Source of the DNA: Parcubacteria group bacterium | GTDB lineage: Bacteria > Patescibacteriota > Minisyncoccia > UBA6257 | DNA length: 64,000 nt | Assembly: GCA_012798235.1 (NCBI GenBank) | Contig: JAAZNP010000004.1 | Span: 2,171 to 66,170, forward strand | Direction: 5' to 3' | Shown here: positions 9,266-52,200 of the stretch, piece after piece | Numbering within the stretch: position 1 is the stretch's first letter | How the letters are laid out: each line of letters begins with the position of its first letter | Made by a program: the position numbers and the translations under genes | The notes under the pieces: generated by a model | Databases searched by the model: none | Told to the model about the DNA's origin: nothing | What the model saw: the letters and a program-made list of their open reading frames with translations, nothing else

Positions 9266-9517
9266 ATGAATAATAATTTAATTAAAATTTATTCTTCGCC
9301 AGATTGTCCTTATTGCTATACCGTAAAAGATTATCTTAATCAAAAAGGGATTAATTTTGAAGAAATTGATTTATATGAAGAGCCAGAGAAAAGAAAAGAA
9401 ATGGAAGAAATTTCTCATCAAAAGAACATTCCAGTTTTAGTCATTAATAATGAAGTAGTTGTGGGTTGGAATAAAGAAAAAATTGATGAACTTTTAAAGA
9501 AATATGGATTTATATGA
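9266..9517 (+). CDS. Glutaredoxin/NrdH-like protein (CPYC)
   Basis: The sequence YSSPDCPYCYTVKDYL is present. 83 aa. Confidence 0.8.
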   Translation: MNNNLIKIYSSPDCPYCYTVKDYLNQKGINFEEIDLYEEPEKRKEMEEISHQKNIPVLVINNEVVVGWNKEKIDELLKKYGFI

Positions 9518-10424
9518 TCTAATTATTATTGGCGCTGGACCAGCAGGAATTACTGCTGGTATTTATGCTGCGCGCAAAAAGATTAAAACTCTTTTAATTA
9601 CCAAAGATTTTACTGGCCAAGTTGGTTTATCTTGGAAAATAGAAAATTATCCTGGTTTTAAACAAATTAGTGGTCTAAAGTTAATGGAAAATTTGAAAAA
9701 TCATTTAAAAGAATACGAAATTGAAATCAAAAATTTTGAAGAAGTAAAACAAATTGTAAAAGATAATAATTACTTTCAAACTATTACTAATGAAAATAAA
9801 TATTTAGCAAGAACATTAATTATTGCCACTGGTGCTTTACCTAAAAAATTAGCGATAAAAAACGAAAAAAAATTTCTTGGCCACGGCTTATCTTATTGTT
9901 TAACTTGCGATGAAAAAGCTTTTGAAGGAAAAATTGTGGCAGTGATTGGCGGTGGTAATGCTGGCGCCGAAGCTGCTCTAGAATTACAAAAATTTTGTCC
10001 CAAAATTTATCTTTTAGAATATTTAGAAAATTTAACTGGTGATGAAATTTTGAAAGAAGAAGTGTTAAATAGTCCCTCGATTACAGTTATTACTAATGCT
10101 CAAGTATTAAGTTTTGAGGGTGAGAAAGAATTAGAAAAAATTATTTTTAAAGACAGAAAAACAAATAAAGAAAAAGAAATTTTAATTAATGGCTGCTTTG
10201 TTGAAATTGGAACAAAATCAAATACCGAATTTTTAGAAGGGTTAGTAGAATTAAATGAGAAAAAAGAAATCATCGTTGATCCTAAAACAATGGTAACCTC
10301 AGTAAAAGGAATTTTTGCTGCTGGCGATGTTGGTAATTTTAATCAAAAACAAATTATTCTTGCCTGTGGTCAGGGCGCTTTAGCAGCTTTATCAGCTTAT
10401 CAATATTTAAAAACATTAAAATAG
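9504..10424 (+). CDS. trxB: Thioredoxin-disulfide reductase
   Basis: The FAD motif GAGPAG, the redox-active CLTCD (CxxC) and the NADPH-binding motif GGGNAG are all present. It overlaps grx by 14 nt. Confidence 0.85.
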   Translation: MDLYDLIIIGAGPAGITAGIYAARKKIKTLLITKDFTGQVGLSWKIENYPGFKQISGLKLMENLKNHLKEYEIEIKNFEEVKQIVKDNNYFQTITNENKYLARTLIIATGALPKKLAIKNEKKFLGHGLSYCLTCDEKAFEGKIVAVIGGGNAGAEAALELQKFCPKIYLLEYLENLTGDEILKEEVLNSPSITVITNAQVLSFEGEKELEKIIFKDRKTNKEKEILINGCFVEIGTKSNTEFLEGLVELNEKKEIIVDPKTMVTSVKGIFAAGDVGNFNQKQIILACGQGALAALSAYQYLKTLK

Positions 10425-10428
10425 AAGT

Positions 10429-12024
10429 ATGATTAATAAAAACAAAATTTTGGGCTTATTTTTAGTAATTACTTTAATTCTTTCGTTTTTCTCTTTTTAT
10501 TCATCTAGTAGAGCTCAAGAAAAAGAAGTTAATTTGTATTTTTTCTGGGGTCAAGGTTGTCCTCATTGTGCTCACGAGAAGCCATTTCTTGAATCATTAA
10601 AATCAAAATATCCTCAGTTAAAAATTTATGATTTTGAAGTTTGGTATAACCAGAAAAACAGAGATTTATTAATTGAGGTAGGAAAAAAACTAAAAATAGA
10701 TATTAGTGGCGTTCCTTTAACAATTATAAATGATCAGCCGATTATCGGTTATTATGATGATACTACCACCGGCAAACAAATCGAAGATTTAATAATTAAA
10801 TGTCTAAATAGCTCTTGTAAGGATTCGGTTAGAGAAATTGTTTTTAAAAATTTAACCACCACTACTAAAAAAGAAACTCCTTCAACCACTACTACCACTA
10901 CTATCTCTCAAAAAGAAATTAAAGCCTACCTTTTTTGGGCCGAAGGTTGTCCCTTATGCTCTGCTGAAAAGACTTTTTTAAATCAACTTAAAGAAGAATA
11001 TTCGAATTTAAATATTACCTATTTGAATGTTTCTAAAAATAACAATAATGATATTTTAAAACAAACAGTTGAAGAACTGAATATTGAAAATCCCAGTTTG
11101 CCATTATTAATAATCGGAGAAAAAACAATAATTGGGTGGCGCGATCAAGATACATCCGGCAAAGCAATACGCGATGCCATTAATTGTTATTTAGAAAATG
11201 AATGTCCTGACTTAGTTGGTCAAGTTTTAACTCGCTTTAATACTTTTGGTCAATTTACCAAAGATAAACCTTTGCCAGAAAAAATCAAAATTCCTTTAAT
11301 TGGAGACATAGAAACTAAAAATCTTTCCTTGCCGGCTTTAGCAATTATTATTGGTGGACTTGATGGTTTTAATCCTTGTGCGATGTGGGTGCTGATTTTC
11401 TTAATTACCTTACTTTTGAAAATGCAAGATCGCAAAAGAATGTGGATTTTAGGCTCTACTTTTATCGCTACCTCATCTGCTGTTTATTTTCTTTTTATGA
11501 ATGCTTGGCTTAATTTAATCCTCTGTTTAGGATTTATTTTTTGGATTAGGTTAGTGGTTGGGATCGTAGCTTTAGGTAGCGGTGTTTATAATTTGAGAGA
11601 TTATTTCACTAATCAGGAAGCTGCTTGTAAAGTAACTGATGCGAAACAAAAGAAAACGACCATGGATAAAATGAAAGATATTGTCCATCGCCGATCTTTC
11701 TTATTAGCTTTAATTGGTATTATTCTTTTAGCTGCTTCTATAAATTTAATCGAATTAATTTGTTCTGCTGGTTTTCCGGTGATTTTCACCCAATTATTGG
11801 CCTTGAGTAATTTAGCTAAATGGCAATATTATCTTTATATGCTTTTATACATTTTTGTCTTTATGCTTGATGATTTGATTGTTTTTATTGGCGCGATGAT
11901 TACTTTAAGAGTTACGGGTATTACTAATAAATATTCTCGCTTGTCTCATTTAATTGGTGGCATTTTGATGCTTTTAATTGGTTTGCTTTTGATCTTTAAG
12001 CCAGAATTATTGATGTTTGGCTAA
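10429..12024 (+). CDS. DsbD/CcdA-like thiol:disulfide interchange membrane protein with two N-terminal extracytoplasmic thioredoxin-like domains (CPHC, CPLC)
   Basis: A signal/TM segment is followed by two Trx-like modules separated by a Thr-rich linker. Downstream is a CcdA-like TM domain (GGLDGFNPCAMWVL). Confidence 0.75.
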   Translation: MINKNKILGLFLVITLILSFFSFYSSSRAQEKEVNLYFFWGQGCPHCAHEKPFLESLKSKYPQLKIYDFEVWYNQKNRDLLIEVGKKLKIDISGVPLTIINDQPIIGYYDDTTTGKQIEDLIIKCLNSSCKDSVREIVFKNLTTTTKKETPSTTTTTTISQKEIKAYLFWAEGCPLCSAEKTFLNQLKEEYSNLNITYLNVSKNNNNDILKQTVEELNIENPSLPLLIIGEKTIIGWRDQDTSGKAIRDAINCYLENECPDLVGQVLTRFNTFGQFTKDKPLPEKIKIPLIGDIETKNLSLPALAIIIGGLDGFNPCAMWVLIFLITLLLKMQDRKRMWILGSTFIATSSAVYFLFMNAWLNLILCLGFIFWIRLVVGIVALGSGVYNLRDYFTNQEAACKVTDAKQKKTTMDKMKDIVHRRSFLLALIGIILLAASINLIELICSAGFPVIFTQLLALSNLAKWQYYLYMLLYIFVFMLDDLIVFIGAMITLRVTGITNKYSRLSHLIGGILMLLIGLLLIFKPELLMFG

Positions 12025-15722: not shown

Positions 15723-15795
15723 GGTGGCTATGGTGTAATGGTTAGCACGGCAGTCTGTGGAACTGTCAGTGAGGGTTCGAATCCCTCTAGTCACC
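15723..15795 (+). tRNA. tRNA-His (anticodon GTG) with G-1
   Basis: The anticodon loop is CTGTGGA, and an extra 5' G pairs with the discriminator C. Confidence 0.65.
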
Positions 15796-15800
15796 CTATC

Positions 15801-15835
15801 AAAAAATGCCCGGAGATGATCTCCGGGCATTTTTT
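15801..15835. terminator. Bidirectional rho-independent terminator
   Basis: aaaaaaTGCCCGGAGATgaTCTCCGGGCAtttttt. Confidence 0.8.
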
Positions 15836-15851: not shown

Positions 15852-18078
15852 TTATCTTTTCATGCGATGACGTAAATATTCTAAGCGATATTCTCTGATT
15901 TTATTTTCTAAGCGGGCTAAAGCTAAACGGCCCTGAGGATTGAATTTTAAGTAATACCAAAGTAAGAAAGCTAAACCAATACTTAAGATAAGAGAAATGA
16001 TTAAGGAATCCTCAGCACCAGTAGCCACAGTAGCCGCGCCAGCTACTAAACCGTAAGTAATAGTAGCGCTATCACTAACTGTAGTTATATTAGAAGCAGT
16101 TGCTTGAGCAGTATTAGTATAGGTTAAATAGGTACCGGGGTTATTACTTATAGCTTGGAAAGTAATAGTTTTAGAAGCACCGCGGTTAATAGTACCTAAA
16201 GATAATCCAGTAGTGGTAATAGTATCAGCTTGAACTACACCATCAATTTTAGTAGTTCCAGCTCGATAACTAAAAACTGAAGGCAAGGGATCAGTTATAA
16301 CTACATTATAAAGATCATTAGCGCTACCAGCAGTAATTGTTAAGTAAAATTCAATAACATCGCCTTGAGCTACTCTAATATTTTTAGAATAGGAACGATC
16401 ACCAAAAGAAAGATTTCTGCCTAATTTAGTAAAACTCATGGAAGTTGTTGGTGCAGCTACATAAATAGTAACTGTTTGACTAACCTGGCCGCTATTACCA
16501 TAACAAGTTAAAGTATAGGTGGTTTGGGTATTAGGAGTAGTATTCTCATAACCAGTAATTGATTTCGTACCACTCCAACCATTAGAAGCCACACAATAAT
16601 TAGTATTATTAGAAGTCCAACGAAGATAAGTGCTTTCTCCTTGAGTTAAAGAATATTTATCAGCCCAGAAAGATAAAGTAGGAGTAACTGATTGGAGGCT
16701 AACATTGAAAGTCTCAGTATCACTGGTTGTATTATTGGAACAAGTTAAAGTAAAAGTGGAAGGATTTTGCAAATTGTAAATTGTTCTAGAACCATAAGTA
16801 GCTTGGCTACCAGTCCAGTAAGAATTACTGGGATTAGTAGAAGCAGTACAATAATTACAATTTGTAGTATTCCAAGTTAGAATAATATTATCGCCATTAG
16901 TAATACTATAATCATTGGAAATAAAATTAGTAATCACGCATTGGCTTGGAGTCACACAATTGTTTTGACAACTGGTTAATGAGGTATATTCTCCATTAGA
17001 AGCAACTACACATTGATAATTAGAGTTACAAGTATAGCGAGTAATAGGTGGTTGGCAAGCACTAGTACATTCGCTATAGGTGCCATAAGTACCATTAGTA
17101 GCTTGTGAACAAGTCCAGGTATTAGTATTGCAGTTGTATCTAACTGGAGCCACACAATTGTTTTGACAACTGGTTAATGAGGTATATTCTCCATTAGAAG
17201 CAACTACACATTGATAATTAGAGTTACAAGTATAGCGAGTAATAGGTGGTTGCACTGTTACAGTTAAATTTTTTGTATCAGAATTATTAGTACCACTACA
17301 AGTTAAAGAAAAGTAAGTAGTATTGGTTAAATTGTAAATTGTTTTAGAGCCATAAGTAGCTTGACTGCCATTCCAATAGGAATTACTAGGAGAAGCTGAA
17401 GCACTGCAATAATTACAATCGGAAGTATTCCAATTCAAGGTAGTAGAATCTCCGGAATTAACATTAGTATTACTAGCAGAGAAATTAGTAATTACGCATT
17501 GGCTTGGAGATGGAATAGTAAAAGCGCGAGTATTAGATACACCTACCGTAGGAGTAGAATAAGCATCAACTCGCGTATTGGATTTAGCATAAACCCAGAT
17601 TTTGCAGTACTGATAATTAGCTACTGAGGCAGGAATTGACCATTGGATTGATTGCGCATTGGTTTGTTTATTTAATGGAATATTATTAGCAATAATATAA
17701 TCATCATTATATAAACTAGTAGTATCACCGCAACCATATTTAACTAAAAAATAATCAAGAGGAGGGTTAAAAGAGGTAATGTAATAATTCCATTGAATAG
17801 TAATGGTTTTATTAGGAGTAATATAATTGCCTTCGATCGGTAAATAGCGGACGCTTTCGCTGGTATCATTATCATTAAACCCATTAACATTGATATTATT
17901 AATAAATACTCCACAATTATTGTAATTATTGGGACTTTTGGCAGGACAGGCACTAGGAATATTACCATAATCAGCAATGGTTAAAGCACGAGCAGGAAGG
18001 GTATTGACGAAAGAAAAGCCAGCCACAAAGATAATGGCTAAAACGCTTAATTGAAGAGATTTTTTCATATTTTTGTTC
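15852..18078 (-). CDS. Large secreted Cys-rich surface protein with internal repeats and a C-terminal TM anchor. The start is set at MNKNMKK, followed by a signal peptide.
   Basis: ~740 aa, Thr/Asn/Ser/Cys-rich. The 34-aa unit PPITRYTCNSNYQCVVASNGEYTSLTSCQNNCV is repeated identically. Two further repeats, CVITNF...WNT..CNYC.AS.NPSNSYW.GSQATYGS.TIYNL, are present. The C-terminus has a hydrophobic segment plus a basic tail. Confidence 0.6.
16953..17252. repeat. Perfect 102-bp intragenic direct repeat (copies at 16953-17054 and 17151-17252, spaced 198 bp apart and in frame)
   Basis: Identical nucleotide blocks cacacaattgttttgacaactggttaatgagg...gtaataggtggttg are read directly from the sequence. 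Confidence 0.85.
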
Positions 18079-18275
18079 ATATTTTTATTTTTGTAGAACA
18101 AAGTAATTATAGCATAATTATAATAAAATGTCAATACTAGTAGCATCTTTCTACCAGATTTTGATCTTGCTTTAACTTTATCACAAAAATGGTATCTTGT
18201 CAAATATTTTAAAATATGCTATAATATAGGAAGATTATGGAAAAAGTAAGGAATTAAGTATATTATTAAATAAGT

Positions 18276-19289
18276 ATGAAAATAAAGACTTTTATCAAAA
18301 ATTTATTATGGCCCAGTAAAGAAAATAATTTCCAGCCTCGAATTTTAAATGATCGAGCGATTACTCTATTTATTTTACTATTTTTATTATCAAAAGTTTT
18401 CTTTAGTTTTGAATTGATTTTGATTCAACAATCAAAGTTATTTGCCGAATTAAATGCTCAAAAAATTATTGCTTTAACTAACGAGGTAAGACAACAATAT
18501 GGTTTAACTCCTCTAAAGGAGAATACTTTATTAGATTTGGCAGCTCAGCAAAAAGCGCAGGATATGACTATTAATAATTATTTTGCTCACTTTAGCCCCA
18601 CTGGCGTTTCGCCCTGGTACTGGTTTCAGAAAGCGGGTTATAATTATTATTATGCCGGAGAGAATTTAGCCATGAATTTTTTGGATAGCGAAGAAGTAGT
18701 GAGAGCTTGGCTTAATTCACCCAGCCATCGAGATAATATTTTAAACCAGCATTATCAAGAAATCGGAATTGCTATTTTACCAGCTAATGCTAATAGCCAA
18801 GGAATAGCTAATAAACCCATTGTTGTTCAATTATTTGGTAGTCCTCAAGTAGCAAAAGCTGCAACTCCTGCTATCCCGTCAGTGCCTACTACCAAACAAG
18901 CAACAACTACTAGTAAACCAGCGTCTAAAAATCAAGAAATCTTAGGTGAAGAAGAAAAAGCTACTACTTCTACTACTATTATCACCATAACTACTATTCC
19001 TCCGACTACTATTCCTCCGGCTACTATTCCTCCGACTACTTTAGAAACTCCCATTGCAGCTAATTTAGGCTCTGATACTCGTACTAAAATTAATACCACG
19101 AATGTGATTATTGCCTTGAGTTTGATTGCTATGGGCTCAATTGTTATTTTGGGCATTATAAAACAGCAACGAGCTATTCCCTTTGGCTATTCGGAAATTG
19201 TTTTAAGGAGCGCTATTGTTATTTTTATTGGTGCTGCTTTTTGGATTTTTCATTTAGAGAAATTCATTGGGCAATTAATGATTTCGTAA
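18276..19289 (+). CDS. CAP/SCP (PR-1-like) domain secreted protein with a (TTIPP)n linker and a C-terminal TM anchor
   Basis: YFAHFSPTG...AGENLAMNF...WLNSPSHRDNIL..YQEIGIA matches CAP-domain motifs. A TTIPPTTIPPATIPPTT repeat is also present. Confidence 0.7.
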   Translation: MKIKTFIKNLLWPSKENNFQPRILNDRAITLFILLFLLSKVFFSFELILIQQSKLFAELNAQKIIALTNEVRQQYGLTPLKENTLLDLAAQQKAQDMTINNYFAHFSPTGVSPWYWFQKAGYNYYYAGENLAMNFLDSEEVVRAWLNSPSHRDNILNQHYQEIGIAILPANANSQGIANKPIVVQLFGSPQVAKAATPAIPSVPTTKQATTTSKPASKNQEILGEEEKATTSTTIITITTIPPTTIPPATIPPTTLETPIAANLGSDTRTKINTTNVIIALSLIAMGSIVILGIIKQQRAIPFGYSEIVLRSAIVIFIGAAFWIFHLEKFIGQLMIS

Positions 19290-19298
19290 TATCTTTTC

Positions 19299-20021
19299 AT
19301 GATTTCAAGAAAACTTTTCTGGCGTGATCTAAAGTTATTTTTGAGAATTTTTTTAATTCTTTTTGCTGTGATTTTTTTTATTTTTGATGGCACGGCTTTT
19401 GGGGCTATTGCAACTTATAAAATTAGTCATTTTTTTAATTTAGCTAAAACCAAAATTTTCGAGCCTCCTAATTTAAACATTTTTTCAGAAAGTGCCACCA
19501 CAACACTTTCTCAAGGCAGCCCCAATACTACTACTACTAAAACCACTACTTCTTTACCCACCCCTCCTTCAGAATTACAAAATACCAATTTAATTGTTTT
19601 GCCAAAATTCAATATTAAGGCACCCATCTGGGTTGTTAATACTATTGATTTAAAATTAATTTATAAAAAATTAAAAGAAGGGGTTGTTTTATATCCGGGT
19701 ACGGCCATTCCAGGTCAAGGATATTCCATTATTATTGGCCATTCTTCGCAATATCCCTGGCAGCCCGGTCGTTATAAATCAGTTTTTTCTTTGCTATCAC
19801 AATTAGAAGCTGGTGATAAGATTTATATTTATTGGGATCAAAAACCATTAGTTTTTGAGGTTCAAGAAACAAAAATTTTCTTACCCTTTCCTAAAGGTAA
19901 CGAAACTACGGAGACAGTTTTCCCTCCTGAAGAGCAGCCGATTTTAATTTTACAAAGTTGCTGGCCTGTAGGCGTAGCTTATAAAAGAGTAGCTGTGAAG
20001 ACTGTATTAATTAACCAGTAA
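19299..20021 (+). CDS. Sortase family transpeptidase
   Basis: N-terminal TM. The conserved His (IIIGHSS), the TLxTC-like active-site Cys (ILILQSCWP) and a downstream Arg are all present. Confidence 0.7.
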   Translation: MISRKLFWRDLKLFLRIFLILFAVIFFIFDGTAFGAIATYKISHFFNLAKTKIFEPPNLNIFSESATTTLSQGSPNTTTTKTTTSLPTPPSELQNTNLIVLPKFNIKAPIWVVNTIDLKLIYKKLKEGVVLYPGTAIPGQGYSIIIGHSSQYPWQPGRYKSVFSLLSQLEAGDKIYIYWDQKPLVFEVQETKIFLPFPKGNETTETVFPPEEQPILILQSCWPVGVAYKRVAVKTVLINQ

Positions 20022-20041
20022 ATCCCGCGCCTTTGAATTAC

Positions 20042-20092
20042 CTCTCTTGTATTAATATCAAAGGTGCGGGATAAAAGGCTTGAGAGAAAAAT
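20042..20092. terminator. Long imperfect hairpin (15-bp stem) downstream of the sortase
   Basis: atcccgcgcctttga...tcaaaggtgcgggat. Confidence 0.4.
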
Positions 20093-20140
20093 ATCTTGAG
20101 ATAATCTCATTTTTCTGCTATATTACAGTTAGTTTTTATT

Positions 20141-20214
20141 GGCGTCATCGTCTAGCCTGGTTAGGACACGGGGCCTTCAATCCCGTAACATGGTTTCAAA
20201 TCCCATTGACGCCA
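20141..20214 (+). tRNA. tRNA-Glu (anticodon TTC). Position 33 reads C, which is unusual.
   Basis: The acceptor is GGCGTCA/TGACGCC and the anticodon arm CGGGG-CCTTCAA-TCCCG, aligned by eye to canonical tRNA-Glu. Confidence 0.6.
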
Positions 20215-20218
20215 CCTT

Positions 20219-20279
20219 TCGCTTGGAAAGCACTGGACTTTACCTAAAAAGATGAAATCTTGTGCTTTCCAAGTGAGGG
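20219..20279. repeat. Miniature member (~61 bp) of the TIR-repeat family, immediately 3' of tRNA-Glu
   Basis: cgCTTGGAAAGCAC...GTGCTTTCCAAGTGAGGG. It has a 12-bp perfect inverted repeat, and its terminus CTTTCCAAGTGAGGG matches the family end motif. Confidence 0.6.
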
Positions 20280-20293
20280 AACTACTATTTATT

Positions 20294-21394
20294 ATGATAA
20301 TTTTGGGAATTGAAACATCGTGTGATGAAACTTCAATTGCGATATTAGAGGCCAAAAAAGAAAAGGCCTATTTTTTTATTAAACCAATAGCGAGCGTTGT
20401 ATCTAGCCAAATCAAAATTCATGCCCCTTATGGTGGCGTCGTGCCTATGTTAGCTTCAAGAGAGCATACTAAAAATTTGCCTTTAGTTTTTCGCAAAGTT
20501 GTTCAAGATTCTTTTGATGTTAAAAAAATTAAACAAAAAATAGATTTAATTGCCGTTACGAGCGGCCCTGGTTTAATGCCTGCTTTATTGACCGGAGTTA
20601 ATTTTGCTAAAACTTTAGCCTGGAGTTGGCGCAAACCAATTATTGGAGTGAATCATTTAGAGGGTCATTTATTGAGTGTTTTCTTGCCAGAAAAAAATAA
20701 AATTTCTTTATTGCCTTTTCAAGAACTTCAGAAAATTTTTCCAGCAATAGCCCTAATTGTTTCTGGAGGGCACACTCAATTAATTTATGTTAAAAACATT
20801 GGTCATTATCAGATAATTGGCGAAACCCTTGATGACGCTGCTGGCGAATGCTTTGATAAAGGAGCAAGAATTTTAGGCCTGGGATATCCTGGTGGACCAG
20901 CGATTGCCAAAGAGGCAGAAAAATACAGAATACAGAATACAGAATACAGAATACAAAAACTTCCTCGCCCCATGATTGATTCCAAAAATTACGATTTTTC
21001 CTTTTCCGGCTTAAAAACAGCACTGTTATATGCTTGGCAAAAAACAAATAAAAAAGAAAGAAAAAGATTAATGTCCCAATTTGCCTTTGAATTAGAAGAA
21101 TCTATTACTGATGTTTTAGTTCATAAGACTTTACAAGCAGCTAATGACTTTAAAGTGAAATCTATTATTCTTGGCGGTGGCGTGACTGCTAATCAGAAAT
21201 TAAGATTAAAGATGCAAGAAACAATCGCACAACAAAAAAATCCTTTTAATTTTTATTTTCCTTTGCTACAATATACAACAGATAATGCGATGATGATTTG
21301 TTTGGAAGCATTTTTCAATATCAGCAATAAAAAATTAAACTATAAAAATTTAAACTGGGAAAAAATTAATGCTGATGCCAATTGGCGTTTGTGA
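20294..21394 (+). CDS. tsaD: tRNA N6-adenosine threonylcarbamoyltransferase TsaD
   Basis: MIILGIETSCDETSIAIL... and FSFSGLKTA are present. The start is assigned to the internal ATG. Confidence 0.85.
   Translation: MIILGIETSCDETSIAILEAKKEKAYFFIKPIASVVSSQIKIHAPYGGVVPMLASREHTKNLPLVFRKVVQDSFDVKKIKQKIDLIAVTSGPGLMPALLTGVNFAKTLAWSWRKPIIGVNHLEGHLLSVFLPEKNKISLLPFQELQKIFPAIALIVSGGHTQLIYVKNIGHYQIIGETLDDAAGECFDKGARILGLGYPGGPAIAKEAEKYRIQNTEYRIQKLPRPMIDSKNYDFSFSGLKTALLYAWQKTNKKERKRLMSQFAFELEESITDVLVHKTLQAANDFKVKSIILGGGVTANQKLRLKMQETIAQQKNPFNFYFPLLQYTTDNAMMICLEAFFNISNKKLNYKNLNWEKINADANWRL
20924..20958 (+). repeat. Heptanucleotide microsatellite (ATACAGA)x4 plus one degenerate unit inside tsaD, encoding YRIQNTEYRIQ
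   Basis: aaatacagaatacagaatacagaatacagaatacaaaa. Confidence 0.85.
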
Positions 21395-21395
21395 T

Positions 21396-23582
21396 ATGAG
21401 AAAAAATCTATCTAAAACTTACGAACACCAAAAAACAGAAAAGAAAATTTATCACCTTTGGGAAAAATCTGGTTTTTTTAATCCGGATAAACTTCAAACC
21501 AAAGGGCCTCCTTTTACTATTATTATGCCGCCGCCTAATGCGAATGATCCTTTACATATTGGACATGCTGTTTTTGTGACTTTGGAAGATTTATTAATAA
21601 GATATCATCGCATGAAAGGAGATAAAGCTTTATGGTTACCGGGTACCGATCATGCGGGTTTTGAAACACAGGTAGTGTTTGAAAAAAAATTAGCTCAAGA
21701 AGGGAAAAGTCGCTTTTCTTTTACTCGAGATGAATTTTATCGTTTGGTTTGGGAATATACTCAGAAAAATAAAAAAATCGTTAAGGAACAATTAAAAAAA
21801 TTAGGCGCTTCTTGTGACTGGTCGCGAGAAAAATTTACCTTAGATAAGAAAATTATTAAAGTAGTTTATGAAACTTTTGCCTCTTTATGGAAGGATGGTT
21901 TATTATATCGCGGCCAAAGAATTGTTAATTATTGCCCTAAACATCAAACCGCTTTTTCAGAATTAGAAGTAAAATATCAAGAAGAAAAAGCGAAATTATA
22001 TTATGTCCAATATTGTTTTCGGAATAATCCCCAGAAATCTATTACTGTAGCTACGACGAGGCCGGAGACTATTCCTGGCGATGTGGCTATTGCAGTTAAC
22101 CCCCAAGATGAAAGATACAAATCTCTTATTGGCGAATTAGTAATAGAGCCTATTACTAAAAGAGAAATACCAATTATTGCTGATCCGCGAGTAGAAATAG
22201 ATTTTGGCACCGGCGCCTTAAAAATTACTCCGGCCCATGATGCTACTGATTTTGAAATTGGGAAAGACCATAATTTAGAAATTCGCCAAACATTAAACTT
22301 CGACGGCCGATTTAATAAATTATCCGGACCCTTAAATGGTTTAAAAGTAAATGAGGCTCGTCTTCAATCTATCGAGATTTTAAAAAATAATAAAGCCCTT
22401 ATAAAAGAAGAAGATTATACTCATGAAGTTGGTCATTGTTATAAATGCGGCACTATTATTGAACCGATGATCATGGACCAATGGTTTATTGATGTGAATA
22501 AAAAATTTGGTAAACGCAACAAATCTTTAAAAGAATTAGCTATTGAAGCGATTAAAACTAAAAAGATTAAAATTATTCCTAGTAATTTTGAAAAAGTATT
22601 TTATTACTGGATGGAAAATTTAAAGGATTGGAATATTTCGCGACAAATTTATTGGGGAATTAGGATCCCTGTTTGGTATTGCCAGGAACAGAAAAATGAA
22701 ATTTGTAAAAGTAAAAAGGGCATTATTGTGGCAACCAAAAGAACTCCTTTAAAATGTCCTTATTGCGGCAGCACTAAACTTATGCAGGACCCTGATGTTT
22801 TAGATACCTGGTTTTCTTCAGGACAGTGGCCTTTTGCTACTTTAATGGCGAATAAAACGACTGATTTAAAAAATTATTATCCCACAAGCGTGATGGAAAC
22901 TGGTTGGGATATTCTTTTCTTTTGGGTAGCGCGGATGATTATGTTAGGTCTTTATCGTTTGCAGCAAGTACCTTTTAAGATTGTGTATTTGCATGGTTTA
23001 GTACGTGATAAAGATAGGCAAAAAATGTCTAAATCAAAAGGCAATGCTATTGATCCCTTGGCAGTCACTGATCTTTATGGGGCTGACGCTTTGAGAATGG
23101 CTTTAGTTATTGGTAATAGCCCTGGACAAGATATTATTATTTCTGAAGAAAAAATAAGAGGTTATCGCAATTTTAGTAATAAAATTTGGAATGCTAGTCG
23201 TTTTGTTTTAATGAGTTTAGAAGGATTTAATGGCAAAAAACCAAAATTAACTTCTTCTGATAAAAAACTTTTAGATGATTTTGAAAAAATTAAGGAAAAA
23301 ATTACTCGCTATTTAGATAATTATCGTTTTTCTTTAGCCGGAGAGACGCTTTACCATTATTTTTGGCACACTTTTGCTGATAAAATTATTGAAGAAATGA
23401 AAATAAGAATCAGGGAAAAGAACAATGAAAAGGCAGCGCAATATATTTTATTAACGATTTTATCCGATTGTTTAAAAATGCTTCATCCTTTTATGCCCTT
23501 TATTACTGAAGCAATTTGGCAACAATTTAATAAATATCACTCTAAGAAGGAAAAACTTTTAATGATTAGTTTATGGCCATAG
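21396..23582 (+). CDS. valS: Valyl-tRNA synthetase (short form lacking the C-terminal coiled coil)
   Basis: HIGH (PLHIGHA), KMSKS (KMSKSKGN) and the ValRS-specific WLPGTDHAGFETQ are present. The start is set at MRKNLSKTYE. Confidence 0.85.
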   Translation: MRKNLSKTYEHQKTEKKIYHLWEKSGFFNPDKLQTKGPPFTIIMPPPNANDPLHIGHAVFVTLEDLLIRYHRMKGDKALWLPGTDHAGFETQVVFEKKLAQEGKSRFSFTRDEFYRLVWEYTQKNKKIVKEQLKKLGASCDWSREKFTLDKKIIKVVYETFASLWKDGLLYRGQRIVNYCPKHQTAFSELEVKYQEEKAKLYYVQYCFRNNPQKSITVATTRPETIPGDVAIAVNPQDERYKSLIGELVIEPITKREIPIIADPRVEIDFGTGALKITPAHDATDFEIGKDHNLEIRQTLNFDGRFNKLSGPLNGLKVNEARLQSIEILKNNKALIKEEDYTHEVGHCYKCGTIIEPMIMDQWFIDVNKKFGKRNKSLKELAIEAIKTKKIKIIPSNFEKVFYYWMENLKDWNISRQIYWGIRIPVWYCQEQKNEICKSKKGIIVATKRTPLKCPYCGSTKLMQDPDVLDTWFSSGQWPFATLMANKTTDLKNYYPTSVMETGWDILFFWVARMIMLGLYRLQQVPFKIVYLHGLVRDKDRQKMSKSKGNAIDPLAVTDLYGADALRMALVIGNSPGQDIIISEEKIRGYRNFSNKIWNASRFVLMSLEGFNGKKPKLTSSDKKLLDDFEKIKEKITRYLDNYRFSLAGETLYHYFWHTFADKIIEEMKIRIREKNNEKAAQYILLTILSDCLKMLHPFMPFITEAIWQQFNKYHSKKEKLLMISLWP

Positions 23583-24286
23583 TTTTTACTATTAGCAGTA
23601 TTTTAGGTGTCGTGCCTATTGCTTTATGGTTGATGTTTTTCTTATGGCAAGATATTAAAAAGCCCGAACCATTAAAATGGCTTTTGATTTTATTTGGTGT
23701 CGGTATTTTAATTACTCCGCTTGTTTGGTATGGCGAAGGATTATTAATGAAAGTTTTAAAAATTGATTTGAATACCAACCTTTCATTATCAAGCGTTATT
23801 ACTGTGTATAGTGGCATTGCTATTATTGAAGAATTAACTAAATTTTTTAGCGCCTCCTTGGTTTTAAAGAAAAACAAGTATTTCGATGAAGCGATTGATG
23901 TAATGATTTATTTAATTATCCTAGCTTTGGGTTTTGGTTTGGTAGAAAATATTTTAGCTGCCAGTCAAGAAATCAATGAAGGCAATTTACTATTATCAGT
24001 ACTACAAACAATGAGTTTAAGATTCGTAGGAGCTAATTTGCTACACGCCCTTTCCAGCGGAATAATTGGTTATTTCTGGGCCCTAAAATTAATGCTCAAA
24101 AAAAATTATTTTCTCTACGAAGGATTAATTTTAGGCATTCTCTTGCACGCTGTCTTTAATATTGCTATTATTAAATTTGGCGGCCCAGCCGTATTTTTCG
24201 TTAGTTTGGGATTATTTTTAACAGCAATTTTTCTTCTTTGGGCATTCGATTCCTTAAAGACAATTAAAAAACCAATAAAATATTAA
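23573..24286 (+). CDS. PrsW-family intramembrane metalloprotease-like protein
   Basis: Polytopic protein carrying the PrsW motifs EELTKF (EExxK), LLHALSSG (FxxxH-like) and LHAVFN (HxxxN). Confidence 0.55.
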   Translation: MAIVFTISSILGVVPIALWLMFFLWQDIKKPEPLKWLLILFGVGILITPLVWYGEGLLMKVLKIDLNTNLSLSSVITVYSGIAIIEELTKFFSASLVLKKNKYFDEAIDVMIYLIILALGFGLVENILAASQEINEGNLLLSVLQTMSLRFVGANLLHALSSGIIGYFWALKLMLKKNYFLYEGLILGILLHAVFNIAIIKFGGPAVFFVSLGLFLTAIFLLWAFDSLKTIKKPIKY

Positions 24287-24291
24287 ATTAT

Positions 24292-24684
24292 ATGGCAGAA
24301 AAAAAGAAATCTTTAAAAATTAATAATAATGCTTCTTGGCCCTCCTCAGTTGAAGAAGGGGAATTAGCTATTGATTTATACGAAACTAAAGATAGTTTAG
24401 TGCTCCAAGCAGTTATTGGCGGAATGAAAGCTGATGACTTAGATATTTCTATCACTAATGATATGATTACTATTCGGGGCGAAAGGCAAAGAGAAGAAAG
24501 TGGTCAGATTGATAAATTTTATTACGACGAATGTTTTTGGGGAGCTTTTTCTCGCTCTTTAGTTTTACCGCAAGAAGTAGATGCTGATAAAGCCAAAGCC
24601 ACCATTAAAAACGGCCTCCTCACAATAGTTTTGCCTAAATTAGAAAAGACCAAAAAGAAAACTCTGCAAATTGAAGAAAAATAA
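24292..24684 (+). CDS. Hsp20/alpha-crystallin family small heat-shock protein
   Basis: The ACD domain GLLTIVLPK is present. 130 aa. Confidence 0.8.
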   Translation: MAEKKKSLKINNNASWPSSVEEGELAIDLYETKDSLVLQAVIGGMKADDLDISITNDMITIRGERQREESGQIDKFYYDECFWGAFSRSLVLPQEVDADKAKATIKNGLLTIVLPKLEKTKKKTLQIEEK

Positions 24685-24851: not shown

Positions 24852-25205
24852 TTAGAAGAATTTGCATTGCGCCCCCTTACCAAATAAGACACAGATCAAG
24901 TACACCAATCCTCGAGCTAATAAAGCAATGCCAACGCCAATTAAAGCATAAATGAGCATATTTAATGCACTCTTTACTTTTTCTTCATTGCCAGCAGAAG
25001 TTACATAAGTAAAACCAGCAGCAATCAGCATAATTACAGCAATTAAAAGCACGATACCAAAAAACCAATTGGTAATAGTTTTAATAACACCATTTGTTCC
25101 CCAAGGATCGATTTCAATCCAAGGCGCTTCCGGCGGTTGGGCTAAGGCTAATAGTGCTCCAGAAAGAAGCGTAATTAATGAAATAGTTAAAATTAGTTTT
25201 TTCAT
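24852..25205 (-). CDS. Pilin-like two-helix protein, paralog 1 (TrbC/VirB2-like core; short C-terminal tail)
   Basis: A signal peptide precedes the conserved core WFFGIVLLIAVIMLIAAGFTYVTSAGNEEKVKSA..LIYALIGVGIALLARG, shared with the three upstream paralogs. Confidence 0.55.
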   Translation of the reverse strand: MKKLILTISLITLLSGALLALAQPPEAPWIEIDPWGTNGVIKTITNWFFGIVLLIAVIMLIAAGFTYVTSAGNEEKVKSALNMLIYALIGVGIALLARGLVYLICVLFGKGAQCKFF

Positions 25206-25296
25206 AATGATAATTTTATTTTAAGCTATCGACCTTATTGACTCTTTATTAATTATATAGATTTAATCAGTAAAAAGTCAAATTATTTTAGTTATT

Positions 25297-25857
25297 TTAA
25301 ACAAAATTAAAATATTTAGTTCCGCCACCTCCACCAGCGCCGCAGCATAATTCTCTACAAGTTATAGATAAAGAATCGCACCAATCTTCTAAAGACGGAG
25401 AACCGCTAGTGCAATCGCAAATTTTACTCAAATTAGGTATATTTTCTTGTGCTTGCTCGACAATGACATCGACGATATTTTGATTTGCTTCATTATAATT
25501 ATAAGAAGAGGTGCTGGTAGTTTTTCCTTGAAGAAAATTTTGAACAAACGTCGGGATACCTCGAGCTAATAAAGCGATAGCCACACCAATTAAAGCAAAA
25601 ATAATAGTTTTGGAAGCAATTCTAATTTTATCTTCATTTCCACCGGCAGTAATATAAGTAAAACCAGCATAAATAAGCATAATGACAGCTATAGTCAAAG
25701 CAATGCCAAAAAACCAATTTAAGGCATTTTCTAAAATAGTCCAAATACTAATATTACTCGTATCGGGAATTTTAGGCATAGTTGCTGGAGGCGCTGCCCA
25801 AGTCACAGGAAAAGAAATAAAGAGAAAAATAAAGATCAAGAAAATAATTTGTTTCAT
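25297..25857 (-). CDS. Pilin-like two-helix protein, paralog 2, with a Cys/Gly-rich C-terminal tail
   Basis: Same core (WFFGIALTIAVIMLIYAGFTYITAGGNEDKIR). The tail reads CDCTSGSPSLEDWCDSLSITCRELCCGAGGGGG. Confidence 0.55.
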   Translation of the reverse strand: MKQIIFLIFIFLFISFPVTWAAPPATMPKIPDTSNISIWTILENALNWFFGIALTIAVIMLIYAGFTYITAGGNEDKIRIASKTIIFALIGVAIALLARGIPTFVQNFLQGKTTSTSSYNYNEANQNIVDVIVEQAQENIPNLSKICDCTSGSPSLEDWCDSLSITCRELCCGAGGGGGTKYFNFV

Positions 25858-25875
25858 AATATTAACATTAATAAT

Positions 25876-26355
25876 TTATGGGGAAATACATTGACCTCCG
25901 CAGCAAACTAAACCATTATCACATGGGCCAAGAATTTGGTCAGAGCACTCCGATTCACTACAACAATTGCCACCGCTATTAGCGCATGTCTCAGAATTAC
26001 TGGTATTCTTATTAATTCCTAAAAATTCTTTGATTAAAGCCGGGACTGCTCGGGCAATTAAAACAATGGCAAAACCAATAATTGCCCAAATCAATACCTT
26101 TTGCGCGGTTTTCACTTTTTCTTCATTGCCGCCAGCAGTAATATACAAAAATCCAGCATAAACAATAATAATAGGAGTGACAACAATAGCGACTCCAATT
26201 AAGAAATTAGTAATTTTTTCAATTAAGGTATAAATATCAGACGTTTCGCCTAAAGGATTAGGGATGGTTATTTCAGTGGTTTTATCTTCAGCAAAAGTTA
26301 TTGCAGTTAAACTAATGAGAAATATTAAAACCAAGATAAATATTTTTTGTTTCAT
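25876..26355 (-). CDS. Pilin-like two-helix protein, paralog 3, with a Cys-rich tail
   Basis: Core IIVYAGFLYITAGGNEEKVKTA. The tail reads CANSGGNCCSESECSDQILGPCDNGLVCCGGQC. Confidence 0.55.
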   Translation of the reverse strand: MKQKIFILVLIFLISLTAITFAEDKTTEITIPNPLGETSDIYTLIEKITNFLIGVAIVVTPIIIVYAGFLYITAGGNEEKVKTAQKVLIWAIIGFAIVLIARAVPALIKEFLGINKNTSNSETCANSGGNCCSESECSDQILGPCDNGLVCCGGQCISP

Positions 26356-26405
26356 AGATTTTTATTTTATTATTAGGCTCAATATTAAAAATTTATTATA
26401 CTAAG

Positions 26406-52128: not shown

Positions 52129-52200
52129 GGGCGTGTAGCTCAGTGGTAGAGCGATTGTCTTATAAACAATAGGTCCCAGGTTCGATCCCTGGCACGCCCA
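52129..52200 (+). tRNA. tRNA-Ile (anticodon TAT)
   Basis: The acceptor is GGGCGTG/CACGCCC and the anticodon arm ATTGT-CTTATAA-ACAAT. Confidence 0.55.

What the first reader, a model, noticed from the sequence alone, without database searches (positions are those of the whole stretch)
15852..20021. Sortase-associated surface-display locus containing a perfect 102-bp intragenic duplication
A divergent gene pair sits next to a sortase: a large Cys-rich, Asn/Thr/Ser-rich secreted protein (minus strand, C-terminal TM anchor) and a CAP/PR-1-domain protein (TTIPP repeats plus a C-terminal TM).

Neither substrate candidate has a canonical LPxTG, so the sorting signal, if any, is non-canonical.

Inside the large gene, two 102-bp blocks (16953-17054 and 17151-17252) are nucleotide-identical and in frame, duplicating a 34-aa Cys-containing module. 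This points to very recent duplication or gene conversion, and is a potential hotspot for repeat-number variation.
Basis: seen in the sequence. Interest (0 to 1): 0.55.

Follow-up and report, generated by a model that had tools for sequence, protein, structure and literature searches.

The report
Recombining adhesin gene beside a sortase
A tiny uncultured (Parcubacteria) bacterium carries a gene for a long, bead-on-a-string surface protein in which one 34-amino-acid bead was very recently copied letter-for-letter onto another; the gene sits next to an enzyme (sortase) that probably fastens the protein to the cell wall through an unusual, undescribed address tag. This is a real and tidy example of a known kind of thing, not a new principle.

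Summary
Window 16953-17054 and 17151-17252 are 100% identical (102 nt, 34 codons, in frame); the match extends to 108 nt with one mismatch. Three independent Logan assemblies break exactly k-1 = 30 nt inside the repeat, so it is not an assembly artefact.

The gene (15852-18068, minus strand; NMB92054.1) encodes a 738-aa Parcubacteria surface protein: signal peptide, N-terminal beta-sandwich domain, three ~85-aa beta-rich domains, a 4-Cys mini-domain array A-B-A, a CLIPPER/DUF11 domain and a C-terminal tail.

The two identical blocks are the A modules, separated by a divergent B module. This rules out a simple tandem duplication and favours gene conversion or unequal exchange. Homologs carry 0-11 modules and often hold near-identical pairs.

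The tail has an invariant core V-x-G-A-x-T-[VI]-x-T-G-[PA], then a TM helix and a basic segment. It is rare (31 cluster representatives in 1.84 billion proteins), always follows CLIPPER, and matches no curated sorting-signal model. It is probably the signal for the adjacent sortase, which has an intact catalytic triad but fits no class. This link is unproven.

The CAP protein is not a substrate. It is the sortase's frequent operon partner.

Verdict: new variant of a known kind; moderate interest.

The parts
15801..15835 (.). Perfect 16-bp-stem hairpin with T-runs on both sides. Likely a bidirectional intrinsic terminator shared by murA/tRNA-His (plus strand) and the surface-protein gene (minus strand).
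   Evidence: I8: 17-nt arms, 100% complementary; terminator-like, 16 pairs, 7 GC.
15852..18068 (-). Surface-protein gene, 738 aa plus stop. Identical to NMB92054.1, 'DUF11 domain-containing protein [Parcubacteria group bacterium]'. An alternative in-frame ATG lies at 18080.
   Evidence: (P0001, 100% identity).
17985..18068 (-). Sec-type signal peptide MKKSLQLSVLAIIFVAGFSFVNTLPARA (K-K, hydrophobic core, A-x-A).
   Evidence: Sequence inspection; hydrophobic segment 3-21. The conserved domain starts at ALTIAD in homologs.
17499..17984 (-). N-terminal ~160-aa beta-sandwich domain (candidate binding/tip domain). Invariant GVSNTR, YCK-W and G-C motifs. No Pfam family.
17253..17504 (-). Beta-rich domain 1 (~85 aa, 4 Cys; presumed Ig/PKD-like, fold not tested). 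Paralogous to domain 2.
   Evidence: D1: 212 nt, 75% identity to 16740-16951.
17151..17252 (-). Cys module A, copy 1 (34 aa, C-x5-C-x13-C-x3-C). One arm of the perfect 102-bp repeat. This is the module absent from the closest ortholog.
17055..17150 (-). Cys module B (32 aa, C-x6-C type). Divergent, single copy, lying between the two identical A modules.
16953..17054 (-). Cys module A, copy 2. The other arm of the perfect 102-bp repeat.
16689..16952 (-). Beta-rich domain 2 (~88 aa).
   Evidence: (D1).
16428..16688 (-). Beta-rich domain 3 (~87 aa).
16065..16427 (-). CLIPPER (DUF11, PF01345) CnaA-like stalk domain. Candidate isopeptide residues K548, E573 or D593, and N652 are >=95% conserved in 96 relatives.
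   Evidence: 35 bits vs cutoff 24.6; TIGR01451; PMC12617251.
16017..16031 (-). Candidate sortase recognition pentapeptide T680-V-A-T-G684, inside the family-invariant V-x-G-A-x-T-[VI]-x-T-G-[PA].
   Evidence: Cleavage is inferred, not shown.
15951..16007 (-). C-terminal transmembrane helix SLIISLILSIGLAFLLWYY (conserved Ser residues and WYY).
15855..15950 (-). Conserved 32-aa basic cytoplasmic segment LKFNPQGRLALARLENKIREYRLEYLRHRMKR. Much longer than a classical sorting-signal tail.
18106..18134 (-). Consensus sigma-70-type promoter (TTGACA-17-TATAAT, 12/12, extended -10 TG) for the surface-protein gene.
   Evidence: Also one arm of inverted repeat I3.
18197..18225 (+). Near-consensus promoter (TTGTCA-17-TATAAT, 11/12, TG) for the CAP-sortase operon, back-to-back with the promoter above.
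   Evidence: I3.
18276..19289 (+). CAP/SCP-domain membrane protein (337 aa; NMB92055.1). N-terminal TM (23-41), extracytoplasmic CAP domain (66-175), Thr/Pro linker with TTIPP repeats (nt 18970-19030), and a conserved C-terminal two-TM hairpin (272-290, 300-318). Not a sortase substrate candidate.
   Evidence: D4.
19299..20021 (+). Sortase (240 aa; NMB92056.1 is annotated with a shorter start). N-terminal TM 6-24, Thr-rich linker, catalytic domain with H148, C221 and R230. Starts 9 nt after the CAP stop codon, so probably co-transcribed.
15724..15796 (+). tRNA-His (GTG). Left boundary of the three-gene module.
20141..20216 (+). tRNA-Glu (TTC). Right boundary of the three-gene module. The Logan contigs L001 and L038 end inside it.

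Best explanation
The locus encodes a fibrillar-adhesin-like surface protein of a Parcubacteria/Paceibacteria bacterium, together with the machinery that probably displays it.

SHOWN:
- The 738-aa protein is a chain of small extracellular domains: signal peptide, N-terminal beta-sandwich, three ~85-aa beta-rich domains, an array of 33-aa four-cysteine mini-domains in the order A-B-A, one CLIPPER/DUF11 domain, and a C-terminal tail made of a conserved motif, a TM helix and a basic segment.
- The two A modules are identical at all 102 nucleotides, while the B module between them is unrelated at DNA level.
- The closest ortholog has B-A only.
- Relatives carry 0-11 modules and often contain near-identical module pairs.

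INFERRED (origin of the repeat): The identity was produced very recently by intragenic homologous recombination between A-type modules. The most likely route is gene conversion within a pre-existing A-B-A array. The alternative is insertion of a copied A module by unequal exchange. The same process continually changes the length and sequence of the stalk in this family. The two 102-bp arms are now a substrate for a 198-bp in-frame deletion or for further expansion.

INFERRED (display): After Sec export, the tail holds the protein in the membrane. The adjacent N-terminally anchored sortase (intact His-Cys-Arg) recognises T-[VI]-x-T-G-[PA], cleaves after Thr, and transfers the protein to a peptidoglycan precursor. 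The genome encodes MurA, alanine racemase and other wall functions.

SPECULATIVE: The CAP-domain membrane protein encoded immediately upstream of the sortase acts with it, for example by binding peptidoglycan or positioning the enzyme, rather than being cargo.
For: Repeat is real and recent:
- 102 of 102 identical, sharp boundaries, P about 10^-10.8 for codon identity by chance.
- three Logan contigs break k-1 nt inside the repeat.

Not a simple tandem duplication:
- spacing is 198 nt but identity covers only 108 nt, and B is single-copy.
- ortholog L002 is Ig1-B-A-Ig2.
- relatives P0007 and P0008 have A-B-A with the two A modules only 60% identical.

Recurrent homogenisation and copy-number change in the family:
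- 0-10 modules among the 45-60 best homologs tabulated; many intra-protein pairs are 96-100% identical.
- exact 91- and 73-nt repeats in L005, and 62- and 60-nt repeats in L003.
- up to 11 modules.

Architecture.

The tail behaves like a sorting signal:
- invariant V-G-A-T-T-G positions followed by a TM and a basic segment.
- only 31 cluster representatives among 1.84 billion proteins, always at the extreme C-terminus.
- always after CLIPPER, with varied passengers (PKD, fn3, Big_7, MopE). In the most distant members only the motif and TM persist.

Sortase is functional: invariant H148, C221, R230; PF04203 above cutoff.

Tail gene, CAP and sortase stay together in three different contexts:
- Window type.
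- L010, with unrelated flanking genes.
- L007/L035, rearranged.

CAP-sortase operon: about 17 of 27 loci; 9-nt gap; conserved membrane hairpin.

CAP domain and peptidoglycan, by analogy only: the NCBIfam DalA model aligns to the CAP domain, and DalA binds peptidoglycan and is proposed to scaffold transpeptidases (PMC10470522).

CLIPPER domains form the stalks of fibrillar adhesins: PMC12617251.
Against: - No cleavage or wall attachment is shown.
- The motif is not LPxTG, and no curated sorting-signal model matches the tail even at E <= 10.
- The motif's Gly is 54 residues from the C-terminus, outside the 17-45 range used to screen sortase substrates in PMC4155245.
- The long, conserved cytoplasmic segment is atypical for a signal that is discarded after cleavage.
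- The closest-looking published motif, NVQTG, was not cleaved by its proposed sortase in vitro.
- The sortase sits in a housekeeping block conserved in about 24 of 27 loci, so much of the adjacency is inherited synteny.
- Six sortase loci with long flanks have no tail gene within 10 kb. One tail+CAP locus has no adjacent sortase (L009).
- Gene conversion and insertion of a copied module cannot be told apart from one genome.
- The Logan runs may come from the same site or study as the MAG.
- The role proposed for the CAP protein has no direct evidence.
Confidence: 0.6

Rival explanations
1. A single, simple, very recent tandem duplication of one 34-aa module (replication slippage) created the repeat.
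For: Perfect identity of 102 nt, in frame. The ortholog L002 has exactly one module fewer (33 aa).
Against: A tandem duplication of length L gives copies spaced L apart. Here the spacing is 198 nt but the identity covers only 102-108 nt. The 96-nt B module between the copies has no second copy, and offset-198 identity outside the block is at background. Relatives already have A-B-A arrays with diverged A modules.
Confidence: 0.07
2. The surface protein is a permanently membrane-anchored type I protein. The conserved tail is a TM anchor plus a cytoplasmic interaction segment and is never cut. The sortase next door is there only through inherited gene order and acts on other substrates.
For: - The 32-aa cytoplasmic segment and the TM are strongly conserved, which is odd for a discarded peptide.
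- No curated sorting model matches.
- The motif lies 54 residues from the C-terminus.
- The sortase sits in a conserved housekeeping block.
- There are sortase loci without a tail gene and a tail locus without a sortase.
Against: - The most invariant part of the tail is the extracytoplasmic G-A-x-T-[VI]-x-T-G-[PA], not the TM. In the most distant members it survives while the cytoplasmic part changes.
- It ends in T-G, the scissile pair of most sortase signals.
- The trio persists in L010 with unrelated flanks.
- No other protein in the 64-kb window has a sorting-signal-like C-terminus.
Confidence: 0.27
3. The sortase is a pilus-type (class C-like) polymerase that joins copies of the CLIPPER protein head-to-tail into a covalent fibre, rather than anchoring monomers to the wall.
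For: The best solved-structure matches are class C pilus sortases (E = 2.5e-5). NCBIfam class C and D models are the top weak hits. CnaA-like, isopeptide-type domains are typical of pilins (PMC12617251). There appears to be one dedicated substrate family.
Against: All class scores are far below cutoff (34-36 bits vs 140-165). There is no C-terminal TM on the sortase. Only one sortase and one substrate gene are present, with no minor pilins. No pilin-motif lysine was identified or tested.
Confidence: 0.08
4. The duplication is an assembly artefact (mis-join or chimeric contig).
For: Repeats inside MAG contigs are a classic source of error. No read data could be examined here.
Against: Three separate Logan assemblies, one carrying 2 SNPs, stop exactly k-1 nt into the repeat. 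That requires two distinct upstream contexts for the same 31-mer in the reads. Assemblers tend to collapse repeats, not create them. The reading frame is intact, and the A-B-A layout is common in relatives.
Confidence: 0.03

Closest known systems
Sortase / LPXTG cell-wall sorting system of Gram-positive bacteria (classes A-F)
   Same: - Sortase-fold enzyme with His-Cys-Arg and an N-terminal membrane anchor.
- Substrate candidate with a signal peptide and a C-terminal tripartite tail: a short motif ending in T-G, a hydrophobic helix and a basic end.
- Enzyme and substrate genes are adjacent.
   Different: - The motif is T-[VI]-x-T-G-[PA] within a longer invariant V-x-G-A-x-T..TG, not LPxTG, LAxTG or NPQTN.
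- It is not recognised by any curated model.
- The basic segment is 32 aa and conserved.
- The sortase scores 24-36 bits against class models with cutoffs of 140-166.
- It is paired with a CAP-domain membrane protein.
Dedicated one-enzyme/one-substrate sortase systems (e.g. class GN 'marine' sortase, TIGR03784)
   Same: The signal is rare (31 cluster representatives in 1.84 billion proteins) and confined to one substrate family that always ends in CLIPPER plus tail. This suggests a dedicated pair rather than a housekeeping sortase with many cargos.
   Different: The score against TIGR03784 is negligible (11.3 bits vs 158). The motif, phylum and substrate domains all differ. The analogy rests on my own knowledge of that family and was not tested.
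Fibrillar adhesins with CLIPPER (DUF11) stalk domains (PMC12617251)
   Same: Signal peptide, a terminal non-repeat domain, a stalk of small repeated domains, a CLIPPER domain and a C-terminal sorting/anchor element. Lys, Asp/Glu and Asn positions that could form an isopeptide bond are conserved.
   Different: There is only one CLIPPER domain. The variable part of the stalk is built from an uncurated 33-aa four-Cys mini-domain rather than from CLIPPER repeats. The isopeptide bond was not verified, and there is no sequence match to 9IFR.
Repeat-number-variable surface proteins evolving by intragenic recombination (concerted evolution of adhesin repeats)
   Same: In-frame, nucleotide-identical modules in a surface protein. 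Module number differs among relatives. Within-gene modules are more alike than orthologous ones.
   Different: The array alternates two module types (A and B), so the identical copies are not adjacent. Only two identical copies are present. Variation within a single population has not been shown.
Kunitz/BPTI-type disulfide mini-domains
   Same: The predicted module shape is a beta-hairpin followed by a short helix, pinned by cysteines. All 35 weak Foldseek hits were Kunitz/BPTI chains.
   Different: No hit is significant (best E = 0.65). The module has 33 aa and 4 Cys, against ~58 aa and 6 Cys. There is no Pfam match. This is a resemblance of shape only.
Bacterial CAP/SCP proteins YkwD and DalA
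   Same: The CAP domain matches PF00188. It aligns to the YkwD and DalA models over ~105 residues. DalA binds peptidoglycan and is proposed to scaffold transpeptidases (PMC10470522).
   Different: Scores are below both family cutoffs (113 vs 171; 65.9 vs 200). The protein here is a three-TM membrane protein with a conserved C-terminal hairpin, not a lipoprotein. No functional data exist for it.

Membership tests
Sortase family (PF04203) | Sortase domain above Pfam gathering score | tested here: met
   57.2 bits vs cutoff 26.6, residues 100-236.
Sortase family (PF04203) | Catalytic His, Cys (TLxTC-like) and Arg present | tested here: met
   H148 (IIGHSSQYPW), C221 (LILQSCWP) and R230 (KRVAVK) are invariant in 24 homologs.
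Sortase classes A-F and GN (NCBIfam models) | Score at or above the curated class cutoff | tested here: not met
   Scores vs cutoffs: SrtD 36.3 vs 140; class D 35.5 vs 165; class C 34.2 vs 160; class E 25.3 vs 160; class F 23.7 vs 166; class GN 11.3 vs 158. The best PDB relative is a class C sortase at only E = 2.5e-5.
LPXTG-type cell-wall sorting signal | LPXTG, or a described variant pentapeptide | tested here: not met
   The motif is TVATG (family consensus T-[VI]-x-T-G-[PA]). No hit to any curated sorting-signal model at E <= 10.
LPXTG-type cell-wall sorting signal | Hydrophobic segment followed by a basic C-terminus, plus an N-terminal signal peptide | tested here: met
   TM at 684-702, then a 32-aa segment rich in K and R. 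Signal peptide at 1-28.
LPXTG-type cell-wall sorting signal | Motif 17-45 residues from the C-terminus (screening rule used in PMC4155245) | tested here: not met
   G684 is 54 residues from the end of the 738-aa protein.
LPXTG-type cell-wall sorting signal | Cleavage between Thr and Gly and transfer to peptidoglycan | not testable with these tools
   Needs a peptide-cleavage assay or proteomics.
CLIPPER / DUF11 (PF01345) | Domain above the gathering score | tested here: met
   35 bits vs 24.6. TIGR01451: 24.6 vs 24.
CLIPPER / DUF11 (PF01345) | Intramolecular Lys-Asn isopeptide bond with catalytic Asp/Glu | tested here: inconclusive
   K548, E573, D593 and N652 are >=95% conserved in 96 relatives. 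However, there is no alignable match to the solved CLIPPER structure 9IFR, and this domain was not modelled.
CAP / SCP / PR-1 superfamily (PF00188) | CAP domain above the gathering score | tested here: met
   64.8 bits vs 21.1, residues 66-175.
YkwD subfamily / DalA equivalog | Score at or above the curated cutoff | tested here: not met
   YkwD 113.1 vs 171; DalA 65.9 vs 200.
Simple tandem duplication | Copy spacing equals copy length, with the whole unit duplicated | tested here: not met
   Spacing is 198 nt and identity covers 102-108 nt. The B module is not duplicated.
Kunitz/BPTI domain | Significant fold or sequence match; six-Cys pattern | tested here: not met
   Best Foldseek E = 0.65. 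No Pfam hit. Four Cys per 33-aa module.
Fibrillar adhesin (architecture class) | Signal peptide, stalk of repeated small domains, anchor | tested here: met
   Adhesive function itself is not testable here.

The most novel reading that the evidence does not exclude
Paceibacteria possess a dedicated three-part surface-display system that has not been described. Its parts would be:
- a sortase belonging to none of the curated classes;
- an obligate CAP-domain membrane partner, with a conserved two-TM hairpin, that binds peptidoglycan or presents the substrate;
- a single family of CLIPPER-terminated adhesins carrying a new sorting signal, G-A-x-T-[VI]-x-T-G-[PA] plus a conserved TM and cytoplasmic segment.

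The adhesin stalk, built from a new four-Cys mini-domain, would be remodelled continually by intragenic recombination, changing its reach or surface identity in the contact between these tiny episymbionts and their hosts.
Probability: 0.25. Interest if true: 0.62.

Novelty: new variant of a known kind. Interest (0 to 1): 0.42.

Why it matters
Patescibacteria/CPR cells are thought to live attached to other microbes, yet how they build and vary their surface is poorly known. The literature I could search notes only that sortases are common in CPR (PMC6744442). It says nothing about their signals or partners.

This locus offers three things:
- A concrete, testable candidate signal, T-[VI]-x-T-G-[PA], for a CPR sortase.
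- A recurrent CAP-sortase gene pair that hints at an accessory factor for sortase action.
- A clean natural example of stalk remodelling by recombination between mini-domains.

If the motif is confirmed, it would extend the known specificity range of sortases, which also matters for sortase-mediated ligation. It would also improve the prediction of surface proteomes in CPR genomes.

The duplication on its own is an ordinary feature of repeat-bearing surface proteins.

Tried and rejected
1. Module-profile homolog search. It returned only 5 hits and omitted the 100+ module-bearing proteins already in hand. I treat it as uninformative about the module's distribution.
2. Sequence search of the CLIPPER region against PDB. 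No real hit, so the isopeptide triad could not be mapped onto 9IFR.
3. NVQTG of C. difficile CbpA as a precedent for a [VI]-x-T-G signal. Rejected: SrtB did not cleave it in vitro (PMC4155245).
4. Kunitz/BPTI identity for the Cys module. All hits were non-significant.
6. Relaxed HMM and regex search for tail-like C-termini in sortase loci lacking an obvious substrate. None found.
7. Other tail-bearing proteins in the 64-kb window. None found.
8. Literature on sorting signals of CPR or Parcubacteria sortases. Only general statements.
9. The DalA paper. It never mentions a CAP domain, so the link is only NCBIfam's domain-level match and is used as an analogy.
10. Reading A-B-A as the product of unequal crossover. 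Simple single-crossover products would duplicate B or create hybrids, so this is not favoured.
11. Scanning JGI metagenome contigs for a 198-bp deletion allele. Considered but not run: the protein's 90% cluster has a single member from NCBI, so a null result would mean nothing.

Full report
OBSERVATION

An independent repeat search found the same pair, extended to 108 nt with one mismatch (16947-17054 vs 17145-17252), at a spacing of 198 nt (family D2). The longest exact block is exactly 102 nt, and identity at offset 198 drops to 0.3-0.5 on either side. Both 102 and 198 are multiples of three. On the minus strand both blocks read QPPITRYTCNSNYQCVVASNGEYTSLTSCQNNCV.

Selection on the protein cannot explain this identity. 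With the local codon usage, 34 identical codons given identical residues has a probability of about 10^-10.8. Against the closest ortholog (81% nt identity), only 67% of same-residue degenerate codons agree.

IS IT AN ASSEMBLY ARTEFACT?

The window matches an NCBI MAG contig of 67,724 bp. Its proteins are NMB92054.1, NMB92055.1 and NMB92056.1, from 'Parcubacteria group bacterium'.

Three Logan assemblies of separate runs (SRR30978041, SRR30978038, SRR30978039) contain contigs that are 100%, 99.93% and 100% identical to the window. All three stop at window 17223, which is 30 nt inside the copy at 17151-17252. Their first 30 nt also match 17025-17054. For a k=31 unitig this is the expected break: the first 31-mer lying wholly inside a repeat has two different predecessors. 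Both contexts, Ig1-end followed by A and B-end followed by A, therefore exist in the reads.

I could not inspect reads or coverage. Whether those runs are independent of the MAG's sample is unknown.

THE GENE AND ITS PRODUCT

The minus-strand ORF is best started at 18068. That gives the 738-aa protein identical to P0001/NMB92054.1. Another in-frame ATG lies four codons upstream.

The anatomy, with coordinates checked, is:
- signal peptide, residues 1-28;
- an N-terminal domain of ~160 aa;
- beta-rich domain 1;
- Cys module A, Cys module B, Cys module A;
- beta-rich domains 2 and 3;
- a CLIPPER/DUF11 domain (PF01345, 35 bits vs 24.6; TIGR01451);
- a 72-aa tail.

The mature protein has 26 Cys and is 38% Asn+Thr+Ser.

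No Pfam family covers the module, the N-terminal domain or the beta-rich domains. CLIPPER is a CnaA-like stalk domain of fibrillar adhesins, often stabilised by a Lys-Asn isopeptide bond (PMC12617251). In 96 relatives of this domain, K548, E573, D593 and N652 are at least 95% conserved. That is compatible with such a bond, but I could not verify it.

WHAT THE REPEAT IS

The identical blocks are the two A-type modules (C-x5-C...). Between them lies a B-type module (C-x6-C...) that has no second copy. A fresh tandem duplication would give copies spaced by their own length, so this geometry excludes the simplest model.

The closest ortholog (P0002/L002: 77% aa identity, same neighbouring genes) reads Ig1-B-A-Ig2. 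It lacks exactly the first A module. Other close relatives (P0007, P0008) have A-B-A, but their two A modules are only 60% identical.

Across the 45-60 best homologs tabulated, module number ranges from 0 to 10, and reaches 11 in P0255. A and B modules mostly alternate. Many proteins hold module pairs that are 96-100% identical. At DNA level, L005 has exact inter-module repeats of 91 and 73 nt, and L003 of 62 and 60 nt. The window's A modules resemble each other (100%) far more than any module elsewhere (<= 84%).

I therefore read the 102-bp identity as a recent product of intragenic homologous recombination. The most economical version is gene conversion between the two A modules of an existing A-B-A array, with L002 having lost its first A. 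Insertion of a copied A module is the alternative. One genome cannot separate the two.

Whichever it was, the event is much younger than the split from L002. The array is a family-wide site of expansion, contraction and homogenisation. The two arms are now a ready substrate for a 198-bp in-frame deletion.

THE TAIL AND THE SORTASE

All close and many distant homologs end with the same tail. Its invariant positions are V, G, A, T, T, G in V-x-G-A-x-T-[VI]-x-T-G-[PA]. Then come an acidic/polar turn, a TM helix with conserved Ser and WYY, and a conserved basic segment. In this protein the motif is T680-V-A-T-G684, the TM helix is 684-702, and the basic segment is 32 aa.

A profile of the tail was searched exhaustively against 1.84 billion cluster representatives. 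It found only 31 proteins, each with the match at the extreme C-terminus. The 10 new hits scanned against Pfam either have a CLIPPER domain immediately before the tail or, for P0243, no Pfam hit at all. Their N-terminal parts vary (PKD, fn3, Big_7, MopE, multiple CLIPPER). In the most distant ones only L-G-A-x-T-[VI]-x-T-G-P and the TM persist.

That is how a sorting motif would be expected to behave. However, no curated model recognises the tail (LPXTG anchor or any other), whether in the whole protein or in the isolated tail at E <= 10.

The adjacent sortase has:
- a Pfam sortase domain (57.2 bits vs 26.6);
- an N-terminal TM helix;
- invariant His148, Cys221 and Arg230.

It reaches no NCBIfam class cutoff; the best score is 36 bits against 140. 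It is only distantly related to solved class C sortases (E = 2.5e-5).

HOW STRONG IS THE GENOMIC LINK?

Of 27 sortase loci from GTDB species genomes, about 24 share the block sortase-TsaD-ValRS-PrsW-HSP20, so much of the gene order is inherited. A CAP gene lies immediately upstream of the sortase in about 17 of them.

A tail-bearing gene lies divergently upstream of CAP in L011, L017, L019 and L021, and in the homolog-seeded loci L002-L006. It is absent within 10 kb in L016, L026, L028, L029, L032 and L036.

The trio survives in two further contexts:
- L010, where all flanking genes differ;
- L007/L035, where the CAP-sortase pair sits a few kb from the tail gene in a rearranged neighbourhood.

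L009 keeps the tail gene and CAP but has no adjacent sortase. No other ORF in the 64-kb window has a sorting-signal-like C-terminus.

Taken together, this is moderate support, not proof, that the tail is this sortase's signal.

Points against:
- the motif's Gly is 54 residues from the C-terminus, and the cytoplasmic segment is long and conserved;
- the only similar published motif, NVQTG, failed to be cleaved in vitro (PMC4155245).

The main rival is that the tail is an uncleaved anchor.

THE CAP PROTEIN

The CAP protein is a genuine CAP-domain protein (PF00188, 64.8 bits). It has an N-terminal TM, a Thr/Pro linker with three TTIPP units (15-nt repeats at 18970-19030), and two C-terminal TM helices. 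The sequence of that hairpin is conserved across loci: SE[LI]VLR[SG] ... FHLE..IG.LMI[SY]. It has no x-T-G motif before a terminal TM, so it is not a sortase substrate candidate.

Its stop codon lies 9 nt before the sortase start. The NCBIfam models for YkwD and DalA align to its CAP domain below their cutoffs. DalA binds peptidoglycan and is proposed to scaffold transpeptidases (PMC10470522). By analogy only, the CAP protein may help the sortase at the wall.

REGULATORY ANATOMY

The 207-bp divergent intergenic region holds two back-to-back promoter-like sites. One is 12/12 to consensus for the surface-protein gene (18134-18106). The other is 11/12 for the CAP-sortase pair (18197-18225). Both have an extended -10 TG.

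A 16-bp-stem hairpin with T-runs on both sides (15801-15835) lies between tRNA-His and the stop codon of the surface-protein gene. tRNA-Glu follows the sortase.

COMPARISON, NOVELTY AND SCORE

- The enzyme is a member of the sortase family but of no curated class.
- The substrate works like an LPXTG protein but fails the motif, position and model tests, so I do not file it as an LPXTG protein.
- The protein as a whole fits the fibrillar-adhesin architecture, with a CLIPPER domain.
- The repeat is an ordinary phenomenon for such proteins. It is unusual only in being non-adjacent, because the array alternates two module types.

The papers I could search say that sortases are frequent in CPR (PMC6744442; PMC5220378). 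They describe neither the signals nor a CAP partner.

I rate this a new variant of a known kind, with interest 0.42.

Noticed in passing
window 24852-27302 (minus strand): Four consecutive small genes all match T4SS_pilin/TrbC-VirB2 pilin families. The same cluster lies near the locus in relatives L003 and L005.
   Followed up: no
window 52129-52201: ARAGORN called a tRNA-Ile with anticodon TAT, an uncommon way to read AUA in bacteria.
   Followed up: no
window 9504-12024: A thioredoxin-reductase-like gene is followed by a 531-aa protein with thioredoxin/redoxin-fold hits. This could be extracytoplasmic disulfide machinery relevant to the 26-Cys surface protein. CPR disulfide systems linked to sortase pathways are discussed in PMC6744442.
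   Followed up: no
window 39018-41129: A second large (703-aa) protein with a Cys-rich DUF4215 repeat. It lacks the sorting-signal-like tail.
   Followed up: no
proteins P0111, P0112, P0115, P0116, P0118-P0120 (distant DUF11 homologs): These end in a different conserved C-terminal anchor..GAGF[LWF]P..[LI]FGWLLL.. plus a basic/Thr-rich end. It may be another uncurated sorting signal.
   Followed up: no
L007 (8001-10628), L034, L035: ORFs are fragmented under table 11, and the L007 gene 'does not translate to the query'. This suggests a lineage with a reassigned stop codon. The tail gene and the CAP-sortase pair are still within ~5 kb there.
   Followed up: partly
L011-L036 and window 19299-24684: The block sortase-TsaD-ValRS-PrsW-HSP20 is conserved in about 24 of 27 sortase loci. 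This unusually stable gene order weakens adjacency arguments.
   Followed up: yes
L004 4879-5142 vs L003; L003 10191-10646; L002 8183-8446: Homing-endonuclease-type genes (GIY-YIG, LAGLIDADG) sit beside the locus. L003 and L004 are otherwise identical, but only L004 has a called GIY-YIG gene between TsaD and the sortase.
   Followed up: no
window 19299-19340: NCBI annotates the sortase as 226 aa (NMB92056.1). Residues K12, L13 and F14, upstream of that start, are conserved in homologs. This favours the 240-aa start at 19299.
   Followed up: partly
window 16965-16992 and 17163-17190 (plus strand): Each A module carries the same antisense promoter-like site, TTGACA-16-TATTCT (10/12). It is probably a by-product of the Cys-Gln codons, duplicated along with the module.
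   Followed up: no
L029 8331-8681, L036 8332-8682, L033 9002-9397: In sortase loci that lack the tail gene, a small Cys-rich ORF ending ..GGNTLYFTYW or ..GGGEVVFSYW lies just upstream of the CAP gene or the sortase.
   Followed up: no
window 19090-19286 (CAP residues ~272-337): The CAP protein's C-terminal two-TM hairpin is conserved across many loci, with polar residues inside the membrane segments (SE[LI]VLR[SG], FHLE..IG.LMI[SY]). No curated family matches it.
   Followed up: partly
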